Position numbers and translations under genes: made by a program. From a virus, in UHGV virus genome UHGV-0063608: a stretch of DNA of 13,170 bases, one strand, 5' to 3'. Each line of letters starts with the position of its first letter. Positions within the stretch are counted from its first letter, which is position 1. This document shows positions 2,284 to 4,121 of the stretch, one piece after another. Below the pieces are notes generated by a model that saw only the letters and a program-made list of their open reading frames with translations, was not told where the DNA came from and did no database searches.

Positions 2284-3066
2284 CTATTTATTAGTGATTT
2301 CAGCTGGCTTTAACTGCGCGGATAACTGCTCAAGTTTTTGAACTGCCAGTTCAAAATGCGCGGGTAACGCCTTTTCCAGATCAGAGTTAATATCGGTGAT
2401 GGGCAAATCACCACACGACATACTCCGCCTACCCCCACGAACAACATCACGCAACAACTCACGTTCATACGTGCGCATGTTCCCCAATGCCGACTCAGCA
2501 GCCGTCAAAATCCGGCGCAGTTCTGCCGTAATTGCTGGCAAATCATCAACCGTTATGGGGTTCGGGGATGGATTACGACACGCCCGACGCAAAGCCAACC
2601 ATACACCACTAATCCAGGCATTTCGGTATTGAAAACTTTGTGCAATATCGTTAATCAGCCCTCGCAGATACTCCTTCTGCCTCCAGTTCAACGGCTCCGC
2701 AGCTCGCATTGGCTCAGGCTCGACGTAAACGTACTCTCCATTCTTGCGAATAGAGGGCAAGACTTCGTTCGTTACCCATTTGCGAAACCGCCAAGCTGTT
2801 GTGCCTTGCTTCACCGCGTCACGGCAGCGGAGGATCAGGGTGTATAGACCTGACTCTGAAATAATATTTAGCTTTTGCTCTCCGCCAGGGGTGTAACTTA
2901 AAGTTACACCCTTTTCATCCTCATCCAGAGACATTAGCGCCTTCCGGGAGTTAACGAGTCTTAAAGCATCACATACATCCTTAGCCACAAACCACGGCTC
3001 ACCGTTAATCATCACTACACGAACCTGATGCTCTTCCTGAAACGAAAATACAGCTAACGCGCTCAT
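2284..3066 (-). CDS. Bro-N domain protein, putative antirepressor
   Basis: 260 aa; the N-terminus FSFQEEHQVRVVMINGEPWFVAKDVCDAL is a textbook Bro-N/AntA-type motif. Perfect RBS AAGGAGG before the ATG, and the start overlaps the upstream gene's stop (ATGA). It is the last gene of an Icd-like/small protein/antirepressor operon, as in the P1 immI and N15 immA loci. Confidence 0.7.
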   Translation of the reverse strand: MSALAVFSFQEEHQVRVVMINGEPWFVAKDVCDALRLVNSRKALMSLDEDEKGVTLSYTPGGEQKLNIISESGLYTLILRCRDAVKQGTTAWRFRKWVTNEVLPSIRKNGEYVYVEPEPMRAAEPLNWRQKEYLRGLINDIAQSFQYRNAWISGVWLALRRACRNPSPNPITVDDLPAITAELRRILTAAESALGNMRTYERELLRDVVRGGRRSMSCGDLPITDINSDLEKALPAHFELAVQKLEQLSAQLKPAEITNK

Positions 3067-3296
3067 TTAGCCTCCTTATTGTGCTGTAATTGCGACGAGA
3101 GAGATGCTGAATACCCCTGTGCTTCGTGTGTTAGCTCACACGCAATTTGAAGGAGCTTCCCGGCTTCTGATAGATAAATCGACGCCTCACAGCTGGATAC
3201 TGTCCGATGGGCTGATGACACGAGCGCATAGACCTGAGCAAGACGTTCATCCAACGACTCCAGCAGGCCAACAGTGTTCATTTTTACCTGATTCAT
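3063..3296 (-). CDS. Hypothetical 77-aa protein, middle gene of the anti-immunity operon
   Basis: ORF with RBS GAGGTGG upstream, translationally coupled at both ends by ATGA overlaps. No recognisable motif. Confidence 0.55.
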   Translation of the reverse strand: MNQVKMNTVGLLESLDERLAQVYALVSSAHRTVSSCEASIYLSEAGKLLQIACELTHEAQGYSASLSSQLQHNKEAK

Positions 3297-3457
3297 GCAG
3301 CCACCTCGCGCACCGGAATACGGGCAGACAATACCAGGACAAACCGGCTGGCGAACTGGCGACGAGCTTCCCGTTCAGATGACGCGATGGTGGAAAGATG
3401 ATGGATATGTGACTTTTTGTCTGTGCGAACGATTGCCGCAAATTTGAATTTGAACAT
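3293..3457 (-). CDS. Small Icd-like protein (putative host cell-division inhibitor), 54 aa
   Basis: Not in the supplied ORF track because it is under 60 aa. Hand translation gives MFKFKFAAIVRTDKKSHIHHLSTIASSEREARRQFASRFVLVLSARIPVREVAA. GGAG lies 8 nt upstream of the ATG and the stop overlaps the next start (ATGA). The pattern F.F.A...R.D ... SE.EAR ... F.L.L.ARIPV matches what I recall of Icd-like proteins that sit upstream of ant genes. Confidence 0.5.
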   Translation of the reverse strand: MFKFKFAAIVRTDKKSHIHHLSTIASSEREARRQFASRFVLVLSARIPVREVAA

Positions 3458-3495
3458 GGTATGCACTCCGTTTAATTGGTCGTGCTACCACCAGA

Positions 3496-3505
3496 GTTCC
3501 TACGC
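3496..3505 (-). promoter_or_regulatory. Antisense-target repeat, copy proximal to the Icd-like start (GCGTAGGAAC on the transcribed strand)
   Basis: Plus-strand gttcctacgc; identical 10-mer at 3663-3672. Complementary to ggtaggaa at 3531-3538 inside the candidate RNA. Confidence 0.4.
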
Positions 3506-3511
3506 TCTATA

Positions 3512-3590
3512 TGGCGGTAGCCCAGACGGGGGTAGGAATACCGGTAAACGAAGAAACCGGCCAGCTAAAAGCTGCCCCATCTGAGCCACC
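3512..3590 (-). ncRNA. Candidate small regulatory RNA (P1 c4 / P4 CI / N15 CA-like), tRNA-like with a 3' GCCA
   Basis: Minus-strand RNA 5'-GGUGGCUCAGAUGGGGCAGCUUUUAGCUGGCCGG...CCUACCCCCGUCUGGGCUACCGCCA-3'. The first 7 nt pair with GGCUACC (two G-U wobbles) and are followed by G-CCA, like an acceptor stem with discriminator and CCA. There are internal hairpins (CAGC/GCUG and CCGGU/ACCGG), and the UUCCUACCCCCG segment is complementary to two GCGUAGGAAC copies in the same leader. Confidence 0.35.
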
Positions 3591-3620
3591 ATAAATTTGG
3601 TGTACGCAGATTTTACACAC

Positions 3621-3642
3621 AAAAAAACACGCTGGCGCGTGT
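3621..3642 (-). terminator. Intrinsic-terminator-like hairpin inside the anti-immunity leader
   Basis: On the minus strand, a 6-bp stem ACACGC/GCGUGU with a 4-nt loop is followed by UUUUUU and GUGUGU. It lies between the distal antisense-target repeat and the 5' end of the candidate RNA. Confidence 0.4.
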
Positions 3643-3662
3643 TGTGCGCTTCATTTACTCGG

Positions 3663-3672
3663 GTTCCTACGC
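3663..3672 (-). promoter_or_regulatory. Antisense-target repeat, distal copy (GCGTAGGAAC on the transcribed strand)
   Basis: Identical 10-mer to 3496-3505. With its flank (CCGGGCGUAGGAA) it can pair 11 of 12 positions with UUCCUACCCCCG of the candidate RNA. Confidence 0.4.
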
Positions 3673-3752
3673 CCGGCTACGGGATTTACCGTAGCGGAGT
3701 AAACTTTACCGTCAAAACGACGCGCACGTCAATAATTTGCAAAGACATTTTA

Positions 3753-3772
3753 CCCCGTGACCAGTCACGGGG
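3753..3772. repeat. GC-rich perfect inverted repeat ccccgtga-ccag-tcacgggg after the accessory cassette
   Basis: 8-bp stem, 4-nt loop. The T-run on the plus strand is 7 nt away and the minus-strand U-tract is weak, so this is either a weak terminator for the upstream leftward genes or a protein-binding site. Confidence 0.3.
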
Positions 3773-3833
3773 ACAGGTGTTTTTATAGTTTGCTTGAACG
3801 AGTGTTCAGAAGTTGATCGTTAATCAAAGGCCA

Positions 3834-4121
3834 TTACTGATTAAGAGATTGGAAATACCTAACTAACTTACCGGCATCATCACATTTTTCTTTATCTTCT
3901 TCCTTAACATAGCCGCGACAAAAGGCTGAATAAAATTTTGCATTTTCAGAAGCAAAAGCAGCCGTCGAAAGGAGCAGTTCTTTGCATGATTCTTTTGATG
4001 CAGCATCGGGATTATTTTTACATGCAAGCTCTGCTGATGAGTCAATAACAGAAATGCTATCTTCCTGGGCATAAACCGCAGCAGAAAAGGCAAAACATAA
4101 AACAAAAATAAAACTCTTCAC
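3834..4121 (-). CDS. Small secreted or periplasmic cysteine-containing protein, unknown function
   Basis: GTG start with strong RBS AGGAG 5 nt upstream. N-terminus MKSFIFVLCFAFSAAVYA-QE is a typical Sec signal peptide with an AxA cleavage site, and the mature part has 4 Cys. The region is markedly AT-rich compared with repA, which is moron-like. Confidence 0.6.
   Translation of the reverse strand: MKSFIFVLCFAFSAAVYAQEDSISVIDSSAELACKNNPDAASKESCKELLLSTAAFASENAKFYSAFCRGYVKEEDKEKCDDAGKLVRYFQSLNQ

What the first reader, a model, noticed from the sequence alone, without database searches (positions are those of the whole stretch)
3458..3720. Antisense-RNA-controlled anti-immunity operon with a tRNA-like RNA and A/B/C complementarity
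Upstream of the Icd-like/77-aa/Bro-N operon, the transcribed (minus) strand carries two identical GCGTAGGAAC boxes (3663-3672 and 3496-3505) bracketing a segment UUCCUACCCCCG (3527-3538) that is complementary to both. That segment lies inside a 79-nt region that can fold with a 7-bp acceptor-like stem ending in G-CCA, and a terminator-like hairpin with a U-run sits between the first box and the RNA. This is the logic of the P1 c4, P4 CI and N15 CA anti-immunity RNAs, here coupled to a Bro-N antirepressor. The exact RNA and targets appear to be this element's own.
Basis: partly seen in the sequence, partly recalled or inferred. Interest (0 to 1): 0.65.

Follow-up and report, generated by a model that had tools for sequence, protein, structure and literature searches.

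The report
N15-type CA/C4 anti-immunity RNA locus
This is the well-known small-RNA switch (P1 c4 / P4 CI / N15 CA type) that keeps a prophage's anti-repressor operon silent, here in an N15-like linear plasmid-prophage of E. coli; it is real and correctly recognised, but ordinary.

Summary
The window is an N15-like linear phage-plasmid (protelomerase, RepA, CB-like repressor, Q). The finding is the ortholog of the N15 immA leader and cA gene.

Rfam finds a full-length C4 antisense RNA (3596..3510, 73.6 bits against a cut-off of 45).

The downstream genes are Icd (93% identical to N15), AntA (63%) and the Bro-N protein AntB (74%).

The same tandem occurs in N15, phiKO2, PY54, P4, P1 and about 70 viral contigs. 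The C4 fold is supported by compensatory changes in 14 base pairs.

- b1 lies just before the terminator.
- b' is the C4 hairpin-2 loop.
- b2 covers the icd Shine-Dalgarno sequence.

The RNA and its targets are not unique to this element. Identical modules sit on six E. coli plasmids, and each box is shared with other phages.

Verdict: already known, low interest.

The parts
3703..3732 (-). Sigma-70-like promoter of the anti-immunity operon (TTGACG, 18-nt spacer, TAAAGT). The predicted transcription start is near 3695.
   Evidence: It is the only promoter-like site in 3300-3900, and it is conserved in the N15-like relatives.
3622..3695 (-). isrK-like leader RNA, equivalent to the P4 seqA region and the P1 a1b1 region. 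It has hairpin 1 (3695..3676), hairpin 2 (3675..3660), a single-stranded spacer and an intrinsic terminator.
   Evidence: Rfam RF01394, 62.5 bits against a gathering score of 50, full length. The same element precedes C4 in all 14 fetched phage loci where both RNAs were called, including N15 and P4. P1 has a sub-threshold match (35.1 bits).
3663..3672 (-). GUAGGAA (3670..3664) lies in the 8-nt loop of leader hairpin 2.
   Evidence: It co-varies with a' in 57 modules. In one search, where it is labelled 'b1', cognate pairing averages 7.1 bp against 3.7 bp for non-cognate pairs.
3649..3658 (-). Upstream target box b1, GUAAAUGAAG, in the unpaired spacer just 5' of the terminator. It can form 10 bp with the C4 hairpin-2 loop.
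   Evidence: labelled 'a1' there: cognate 8.6 bp, non-cognate 5.8 bp. Its position corresponds to b1 as annotated in P1.
3621..3643 (-). Intrinsic terminator: a 7-bp stem, a GCCA loop and U7. It is homologous to the 'putative rho-independent terminator' annotated in N15.
   Evidence: The N15 annotation at L001 1682-1704 lies inside the N15 isrK-like match at 1628-1703.
3510..3596 (-). C4-family (CA-type) antisense RNA gene. The predicted mature RNA is about 79 nt, 3590..3512. It has a long closing stem, two inner hairpins and a 3' GCCA tail.
   Evidence: Rfam RF01695, 73.6 bits against a gathering score of 45. Folding energy is -44.6 kcal/mol, z = -6.6. Across 37 sequences, 98.4% of cells are paired, 14 pairs carry compensatory changes and 0 of 500 shuffles reach this.
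3544..3553 (-). b' recognition sequence CUUCGUUUAC, in the loop of C4 hairpin 2.
   Evidence: The P1 b' sequence is at the same place.
3532..3538 (-). a' recognition sequence UUCCUAC, in the single-stranded junction before the 3' strand of the closing stem.
   Evidence: The P1 a' sequence and P4 seqB are at the same place.
3496..3505 (-). GUAGGAA (3503..3497) lies in the loop of a small AGAG/CUCU stem.
   Evidence: It co-varies with a' (labelled 'b2' there).
3484..3521 (-). Conserved alternative hairpin. The 3' strand of the C4 closing stem (3521..3513) can pair with the downstream GGUGGUAGC (3492..3484), placing a2 in the loop.
   Evidence: 95.8% of cells paired, with compensatory changes in 5 of 9 pairs across 32 sequences. 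third fold.
3466..3474 (-). Downstream target box b2, UAAACGGAG. It includes the icd Shine-Dalgarno sequence GGAG (3469..3466) and forms 9 bp with b'.
   Evidence: labelled 'a2' there: cognate 8.7 bp, non-cognate 6.3 bp. P1 b2 is annotated at the icd ribosome-binding site.
3293..3457 (-). icd-like gene (54 aa, ATG at 3457), the first gene of the operon.
   Evidence: 92.6% amino-acid identity to N15 Icd. Annotated 'host cell division inhibitor Icd-like protein' in identical plasmids.
3063..3296 (-). antA-like gene (77 aa), homolog of the N15 antirepressor gp31.
   Evidence: 63% identity, E = 2e-30.
2284..3066 (-). antB-like gene (260 aa, Bro-N domain), homolog of N15 gp30.
   Evidence: Pfam Bro-N, E = 1e-21; 74% identity to N15 gp30.

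Best explanation
This is the immA (anti-immunity) control region of an N15-like linear phage-plasmid.

A constitutive-looking promoter near 3732..3703 starts a transcript at about 3695. Its first 75 nt form an isrK-like leader. Box a1 sits in a hairpin loop and box b1 in a single-stranded spacer directly in front of an intrinsic terminator.

Transcripts that read through the terminator contain a C4-family RNA, called CA in N15, CI in P4 and c4 in P1. This RNA is cut out as a stable species of about 79 nt. Its 5' end is predicted near 3590 by RNase P, and it ends at the GCCA at 3512.

The RNA carries two exposed recognition sequences: b' in the hairpin-2 loop and a' in the junction. Acting in trans, they pair with a1 and b1 in nascent leaders. 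By analogy with N15 and P4, this favours termination at the leader terminator and so also limits the RNA's own synthesis.

They also pair with a2 and b2 in read-through transcripts. That occludes the icd Shine-Dalgarno sequence and, as in P1, shuts off translation of icd and of the overlapping antA and antB genes.

The result is that Icd and the antirepressor are kept off in the lysogen. The sequence of the two boxes sets the specificity.

What is shown here:
- the RNA family memberships
- the fold, supported by covariation
- both box complementarities and their co-variation
- orthology of the operon to N15 immA

What is inferred from homologs:
- processing of the RNA
- the effect on termination
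- the block on translation
For: Family membership:
- Rfam C4 scores 73.6 bits (cut-off 45) and isrK 62.5 bits (cut-off 50), both full length.

Element identity:
- TelK-type protelomerase, a CB-like HTH/S24 repressor, Q, and a 1327-aa ORF (weak Toprim and origin-binding-protein matches) in the position of N15 gp37, annotated as a CyRepA1 replication protein in relatives.
- About 80% DNA identity to N15 28229-28588, which covers cA and the annotated terminator.
- Icd 92.6%, AntA 63% and AntB 74% identical to the N15 proteins.

Conserved architecture:
- The same isrK-like + C4 tandem is in N15, phiKO2, PY54, P4 and Aeromonas phages. It is also in P1, where GenBank annotates a1, b1, c4, a2 and b2 at the corresponding positions.

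Fold:
- 27 pairs, 98.4% of cells paired, 14 pairs with compensatory changes, and slid registers drop to 31-50% paired.

Box pairs:
- Both pairs are kept through compensatory change in 57 distinct modules.
- Cognate against non-cognate duplex length: a1 7.1 vs 3.7 bp, a2 7.2 vs 5.5 bp, b1 8.6 vs 5.8 bp, b2 8.7 vs 6.3 bp (its labels are swapped relative to P1 nomenclature).
- b2 contains the icd GGAG.

Literature:
- The N15 antirepressor is negatively regulated by the small RNA CA (PMC10732415).
- P4 CI pairs with seqA and seqC to cause termination, and STnc1160 is an RNA of about 80 nt processed from the isrK read-through transcript (PMC4825925).
- IsrK-like corresponds to seqA and C4 to CI, with similar systems in P1, P7 and N15 (PMC3632133).
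- c4 blocks the ant ribosome-binding site in P1 and P7 (PMC12197685).
Against: - No expression, processing or regulatory data exist for this element. All functional steps are transferred from P1, P4, N15 and Gifsy-1.
- I could not read the primary N15 paper (Ravin et al. 1999). The statement that CA acts by promoting termination at the leader terminator rests on my recollection and on the P4 summary in PMC4825925.
- Folding the leader alone shows no obvious anti-terminator that RNA binding would remove. How pairing with a1 and b1 would raise termination is therefore unexplained.
- The 3' CCA is not universal in relatives. N15 has CCC.
- The Rfam c4-a1b1 model scores below its cut-off here (34.3 against 46.7 bits).
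- In Gifsy-1 the short leader RNA activates rather than represses.
Confidence: 0.85

Rival explanations
1. Gifsy-1 IsrK-type positive control. The terminated 75-nt leader is itself a trans-acting small RNA. It pairs through a1 and b1 with the C4 region of the long transcript, or titrates free CA RNA. That opens the mRNA and activates translation of the downstream genes. On this view the module is mainly an activator or anti-antisense switch rather than a repressor. It could coexist with the main explanation.
For: - The leader matches isrK above Rfam's gathering score.
- In Gifsy-1, short IsrK raises anrP translation more than 100-fold by binding the orf45/STnc1160 region.
- The minimum-energy fold of the unprocessed window transcript pairs a1 and b1 in cis with a' and b'. 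This resembles Gifsy-1 'structure A'.
Against: - In N15, the closest characterised relative, the small RNA CA is reported as a negative regulator of the antirepressor.
- The window has an icd gene with its own Shine-Dalgarno sequence inside b2, as in P1. It does not have an orf45 overlapping the C4 sequence.
- No data exist on the abundance or Hfq binding of the short leader here.
Confidence: 0.25
2. The region encodes a protein. GenBank and RefSeq records annotate coding sequences over it: N15 'cA secondary immunity repressor' (gene 32), P4 'cI gene product' and PGAP's 'ash family protein'.
For: Coding sequences are annotated over the homologous stretch in N15, P4 and many RefSeq plasmids. 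A 40-aa TTG-initiated ORF lies at 3622..3500.
Against: - Substitutions among relatives are compensatory in RNA stems and in the intermolecular boxes, not codon-patterned.
- The hairpin loops have indels of 1-6 nt.
- The region matches two RNA covariance models at full length.
- The literature identifies the immunity factors of P1, P4 and N15 as RNAs.
Confidence: 0.02
3. It is a tRNA or tRNA-derived gene, for example an attachment site or a decoding RNA, and the repeated boxes are incidental.
For: There is an acceptor-like terminal stem followed by G-CCA.
Against: - ARAGORN finds no tRNA or tmRNA in the window.
- The fold is a 17-bp stem with two hairpins, not a cloverleaf.
- The boxes occur at 200 times the chance expectation and co-vary with the RNA.
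Confidence: 0.01

Closest known systems
N15 immA anti-immunity operon with CA RNA (cA-icd-antA-antB; Ravin, Svarchevsky and Dehò 1999)
   Same: - The locus is orthologous. It sits at the same place, between the repA-side accessory genes and telN.
- The leader and RNA are about 80% identical in DNA.
- The isrK-like leader with terminator followed by C4 is the same.
- Icd is 93%, AntA 63% and AntB (Bro-N) 74% identical.
   Different: Both specificity boxes differ.
- N15: a' GUUGAGA, b' CUUCUUGU.
- Window: a' UUCCUAC, b' CUUCGUUUAC.

The two RNAs are therefore predicted not to cross-regulate. The RNA's 3' tail is CCA here and CCC in N15.
P1/P7 immI: c4 antisense RNA with a1 b1 / a' b' / a2 b2, icd, ant1/2 (Citron and Schuster 1990)
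   Same: The architecture matches point for point:
- a1 in the loop of leader hairpin 2
- b1 in the spacer before a terminator-like hairpin
- b' in the hairpin-2 loop of the RNA and a' in its junction
- a2 directly after the RNA
- b2 at the icd ribosome-binding site

Both RNAs are Rfam C4 members.
   Different: - The P1 promoters are under C1 control through operator Oc4. No such operator was identified here.
- The P1 leader scores below the isrK cut-off (35.1 bits).
- The antirepressors (Ant1/2) are unrelated to AntA.
- P1 Icd is too diverged to be found by tblastn at E < 0.001.
Satellite phage P4 immunity: CI RNA with seqA/seqB/seqC
   Same: - The isrK-like leader followed by C4 is the same.
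- seqA, seqB and seqC correspond to a1, a' and a2. P4 carries GUGAGAA / UUCUCAC / GUGAGAA.
- A second, b-type pair is also present in P4 (CCUGUGAA with UUCACAGG).
- An Icd-like ORF lies downstream (48% identity).
   Different: - P4 controls its replication (alpha) operon, not an antirepressor.
- There are 107 nt between the terminator and the RNA, against 25 nt here.
- Reported control is by premature transcription termination.
Gifsy-1 isrK - orf45/STnc1160 - anrP (Hershko-Shalev et al. 2016)
   Same: - An isrK-family leader with a leaky terminator.
- A processed RNA of about 80 nt from the read-through transcript.
- A downstream antirepressor.
- Leader and C4 sequences pair with each other in cis.
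   Different: - In Gifsy-1 the short leader RNA is an activator in trans.
- An orf45 that overlaps the C4-like sequence couples translation to anrP.
- Gifsy-1 has no icd.
- It is a chromosomal lambdoid prophage.
P22 sar RNA / ant
   Same: A small RNA represses antirepressor synthesis at the ribosome-binding site.
   Different: sar is a true cis-antisense transcript from the opposite strand. Here the regulator comes from the same strand, upstream of its target, and is unrelated in sequence and fold.

Membership tests
Rfam RF01695 C4 antisense RNA (P1 c4 / P4 CI / N15 CA) | Covariance-model score at or above the curated gathering score, over the full model | tested here: met
   73.6 bits against 45, model positions 1-87 of 87, E = 3.7e-13.
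Rfam RF01695 C4 antisense RNA (P1 c4 / P4 CI / N15 CA) | A long closing stem enclosing two hairpins, supported by covariation | tested here: met
   27 pairs, 98.4% of cells paired, 14 pairs with compensatory changes, 0 of 500 shuffles as high, and slid registers at most 50% paired. The single-sequence minimum-energy fold is the same.
Rfam RF01695 C4 antisense RNA (P1 c4 / P4 CI / N15 CA) | Exposed sequences complementary to target boxes both upstream and downstream of the RNA on the same transcript | tested here: met
   a' pairs with a1 and a2 (7 bp each). b' pairs with b1 (10 bp) and b2 (9 bp, including the Shine-Dalgarno sequence). Cognate pairing exceeds non-cognate pairing in 57 modules.
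Rfam RF01695 C4 antisense RNA (P1 c4 / P4 CI / N15 CA) | A stable RNA of about 77-79 nt processed from the leader transcript, with its 5' end made by RNase P | not testable with these tools
   Only the substrate features are visible: a terminal helix followed by GCCA at 3515..3512.
Rfam RF01394 isrK-like leader (P4 seqA region) | Covariance-model score at or above the gathering score; two hairpins, a spacer and an intrinsic terminator directly upstream of the C4 RNA | tested here: met
   62.5 bits against 50, full length. The fold is and the terminator. The tandem with C4 is found in 14 relatives.
Rfam RF01394 isrK-like leader (P4 seqA region) | The short terminated transcript is a stable, Hfq-binding, trans-acting small RNA | not testable with these tools
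   This is known only for Gifsy-1.
Rfam RF03163 c4-a1b1 target motif | Covariance-model score at or above the gathering score | tested here: not met
   34.3 bits against 46.7 (E = 4e-7) at 3708..3656. The position is right and the Klebsiella relatives and P1 pass. The miss reflects divergence of this allele, not a different element.
N15 immA operon | Gene order leader-cA-icd-antA-antB next to telN in a linear phage-plasmid, with homologous proteins | tested here: met
N15 immA operon | CA-RNA-dependent repression of the antirepressor, by premature termination | not testable with these tools
   This needs a transcription or termination assay. The termination detail comes from my memory of Ravin et al. 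1999, which is not held in the library.
tRNA / tmRNA | A cloverleaf recognised by ARAGORN | tested here: not met
   ARAGORN finds 0 genes in the window.

The most novel reading that the evidence does not exclude
The two recognition boxes may form a combinatorial specificity code. They reassort freely among N15-like phage-plasmids, P4-like satellites and P2-like Aeromonas phages: 27 variants of one box and 14 of the other occur in 35 combinations among 57 modules.

Elements that share only one box would then partially cross-regulate each other's anti-immunity or replication operons. An example is this plasmid and a chromosomal P4-like satellite of E. coli, which carry the same a-box and different b-boxes.

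In addition, a conserved alternative helix between the 3' strand of the RNA's closing stem and the sequence just downstream may act as a switch. It would decide whether a read-through transcript is processed into regulator or used as mRNA.
Probability: 0.3. Interest if true: 0.4.

Novelty: already known. Interest (0 to 1): 0.12.

Why it matters
It matters mainly for annotation. RefSeq records of identical plasmids label this stretch with protein names ('ash family protein', Icd-like) and do not show the RNA genes. A reader could therefore mistake it for something new.

Recognising it as the N15 immA / P1 immI-type switch identifies the element's secondary immunity determinant. It also predicts that the element is heteroimmune to N15 at this locus.

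The comparative by-products could help predict cross-immunity among co-resident prophages, satellites and phage-plasmids. These are the two co-varying boxes that reassort and a conserved alternative helix. They refine a known mechanism rather than reveal a new one.

Tried and rejected
1. My first idea for the second box was the loop of leader hairpin 1 (GGUAAAU) pairing with the C4 loop (GUUUACC). I rejected it. That loop is nearly constant (GCAAAAUC) across relatives while the C4 loop varies. The partner that co-varies is the spacer before the terminator.
2. My a/b labels are the reverse of P1 nomenclature. I corrected them after reading the P1 GenBank annotation.
3. A single large regular expression for the whole module found only 3 loci. 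I replaced it with stepwise anchors.
4. I looked for an anti-terminator in the leader that RNA binding could remove. The leader folds into hairpin 1, hairpin 2, a free spacer and the terminator, with no competitor.
5. Primary papers on N15 could not be retrieved: Ravin 1999 and Mardanov and Ravin 2007. The primary P4 papers are not in the library.
6. tblastn with the Icd-like protein did not reach P1. I fetched P1 by coordinates instead.
7. The tRNA reading is rejected, and so is the protein-coding reading.
8. A weak Pfam LtuB hit on the Icd-like ORF (18.6 bits, below the cut-off) and a Chloroflexus-1 Rfam hit (16.8 bits against a cut-off of 181.5) are noise.

Full report
**Observation.** All coordinates are on the minus strand.
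- GCGTAGGAAC is present at 3672..3663 and 3505..3496 and nowhere else in the window. The chance expectation is 0.01 copies, and 0 of 200 shuffles gave two.
- UUCCUACCCCCG is at 3538..3527. Its first seven bases are the exact complement of GUAGGAA in both boxes.
- The 79-nt stretch 3590..3512 folds at -44.6 kcal/mol (z = -6.6). It forms a long closing stem, two internal hairpins and an unpaired GCCA tail.
- A 7-bp hairpin followed by seven U residues (3643..3621) lies between the first box and the RNA.
- The only promoter-like site in the region (TTGACG, 18 nt, TAAAGT, 3732..3703) places the transcription start near 3695.

**What the element is.** The window encodes a TelK-type protelomerase (216-2111), a 1327-aa replication protein, an HTH/S24 repressor and a Q antiterminator.
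- It is 96-97% identical over 90-96% of its length to E. coli linear plasmids of about 46 kb.
- The region of the finding is about 80% identical to N15 28229-28588. GenBank places 'cA, secondary immunity repressor' and a 'putative rho-independent terminator' there.
- The three downstream ORFs are homologs of N15 Icd (92.6%), gp31/AntA (63%) and gp30/AntB (74%, Bro-N).
- The phiKO2 record gives the functional names.

The locus is therefore the ortholog of the N15 immA anti-immunity operon.

**The RNAs.** Rfam at gathering thresholds reports two full-length matches.
- C4 antisense RNA (RF01695) at 3596..3510, 73.6 bits against a cut-off of 45.
- isrK (RF01394) at 3695..3622, 62.5 bits against a cut-off of 50.

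The same tandem was found in 14 fetched phage loci.
- In N15, the annotated terminator falls inside the isrK-like match.
- In P4, the two elements correspond to the seqA region and the CI RNA.
- It is also in phiKO2, PY54 and Aeromonas phages.
- P1 has it too.

An alignment of 37 distinct C4 sequences supports the Rfam fold. 98.4% of cells are paired and 14 of 27 pairs show changes on both sides. No shuffle out of 500 does as well, and slid registers fall to 31-50% paired. ARAGORN finds no tRNA.

**The boxes.** I aligned the whole module in 15 phages. I then extracted 57 distinct modules from those phages plus 70 IMG/VR contigs.

- GUAGGAA here and in phiKO2, PY54, KpLi5 and 48ST307
- UCUCAAC in N15
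- UUCGCAA in PhiR46_1
- GUGAGAA in P4 and NAR688
- others as well

The loop of C4 hairpin 2 (CUUCGUUUAC, 3553..3544) pairs at two places:
- with the spacer just before the terminator (GUAAAUGAAG, 3658..3649, 10 bp)
- with UAAACGGAG (3474..3466, 9 bp), which contains the icd Shine-Dalgarno sequence, 8 nt before the ATG at 3457

Cognate duplexes are longer than non-cognate ones at all four sites: 7.1 vs 3.7, 7.2 vs 5.5, 8.6 vs 5.8 and 8.7 vs 6.3 bp.

The P1 GenBank record annotates exactly these elements:
- a1 in the hairpin loop
- b1 in the spacer
- c4 RNA of 77 nt
- a2 directly after c4
- b2 at the icd ribosome-binding site

My scripts used the opposite labels.

**Mechanism.** The anatomy is the same as P1 immI, P4 immunity and N15 immA, so the most likely mechanism is theirs.
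- The leader terminator lets a fraction of transcripts through.
- Those transcripts are processed into the RNA of about 79 nt.
- The RNA pairs with a1 and b1 of new leaders and with a2 and b2 of read-through mRNA.
- The a2/b2 pairing covers the icd ribosome-binding site.
- icd, antA and antB overlap by 4 nt each (stop and start codons at 3296..3293 and 3066..3063), which suggests translational coupling.

Literature held in the library supports the individual steps in the relatives:
- CA negatively regulates the N15 antirepressor.
- CI RNA pairs with seqA and seqC to terminate transcription in P4, and an RNA of about 80 nt is processed from the isrK read-through transcript in Gifsy-1.
- c4 blocks the ribosome-binding site in P1 and P7.
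- IsrK-like has been equated with seqA and C4 with CI, with similar systems in P1, P7 and N15.

Nothing was measured for this element. I could not retrieve the N15 primary paper. The leader fold shows no anti-terminator that would explain how pairing raises termination.

A real alternative, which does not exclude the main explanation, is the Gifsy-1 mode. There the short leader RNA activates translation in trans. The minimum-energy fold of the unprocessed window transcript does pair a1 and b1 with a' and b' in cis, as in Gifsy-1 'structure A'.

**Additional anatomy.** The 3' strand of the C4 closing stem (3521..3513) can alternatively pair with GGUGGUAGC (3492..3484). That places a2 in a loop closed by a small AGAG/CUCU stem.
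- Across 32 sequences, 95.8% of cells in this helix are paired.
- 5 of its 9 pairs show compensatory changes.
- It is visible in P4 and, with one mismatch, in P1.

It may present a2, or it may compete with formation of the processing substrate. I do not know whether this has been described.

**Uniqueness.** The claim that the RNA and its targets are this element's own does not hold.
- The 361-nt module is 100% identical on three complete E. coli plasmids and 99.7% identical on three more.
- The same box combination is present in three IMG/VR contigs.
- Each box on its own is shared more widely, including the a-box in a chromosomal P4-like satellite.
- Both boxes differ from those of N15, so heteroimmunity to N15 at this locus is predicted.

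Among the 57 modules there are 27 and 14 variants of the two boxes in 35 combinations. That indicates reassortment.

**Verdict.** It is nevertheless a textbook system, and standard RNA-family models detect it above their curated thresholds. It is already known, and interest is low. The only mildly new points are comparative: box reassortment and the alternative helix.

Noticed in passing
window 3751-3772 (minus strand): There is a perfect inverted repeat, CCCCGTGAC-TGG-GTCACGGGG, about 20 nt upstream of the -35 of the immA-like promoter. It is conserved in all N15-like relatives. No U-run follows it, and it is not called a terminator. It could be an operator, or the terminator of the upstream 95-aa gene.
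   Followed up: no
window 3484-3521 (minus strand); also L013 (P4) and L089 (P1): A conserved alternative helix pairs the 3' strand of the C4 closing stem with the sequence just downstream, with the a2 box in its loop. 5 of its 9 pairs show compensatory changes across 32 sequences.
   Followed up: partly
57 modules from L001-L086 and the window: The two specificity boxes reassort: 27 variants of one and 14 of the other occur in 35 combinations. The window's b' is shared with NAR688 and PhiR46_1. Its a' is shared with phiKO2, PY54, KpLi5 and 48ST307.
   Followed up: partly
L087 (E. coli MB06102 chromosome, P4-like satellite): This chromosomal satellite carries the same a-box as the window (GCGTAGGAAC twice, with UUCCUAC in the RNA). 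Its b-box is different (CAUAGUUA with UAACUAUGG). Partial cross-talk between a satellite and an N15-like plasmid is conceivable.
   Followed up: partly
window 3500-3622 and homologous stretches in N15, P4 and RefSeq plasmids: Public records annotate protein-coding genes over the C4 RNA: 'ash family protein', N15 gene 32 / cA 'secondary immunity repressor', and P4 'cI gene product'. These are historical or automatic protein calls on an RNA gene.
   Followed up: partly
CP025712.1 (YDC107_1) and several plasmids: Some N15-like elements show two separate places that match the module or icd. YDC107_1, for example, has them at about 33.0 kb and about 40.0 kb. This suggests a second copy of the anti-immunity leader or icd.
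   Followed up: no
window 3834-4121 (minus strand): A 95-aa ORF with a signal-peptide-like N-terminus (MKSFIFVLCFAFSAAVYAQ) lies directly upstream of the immA promoter. Its counterpart in PhiR46_1 is annotated 'Spackle exclusion protein'. It has no Pfam match.
   Followed up: no
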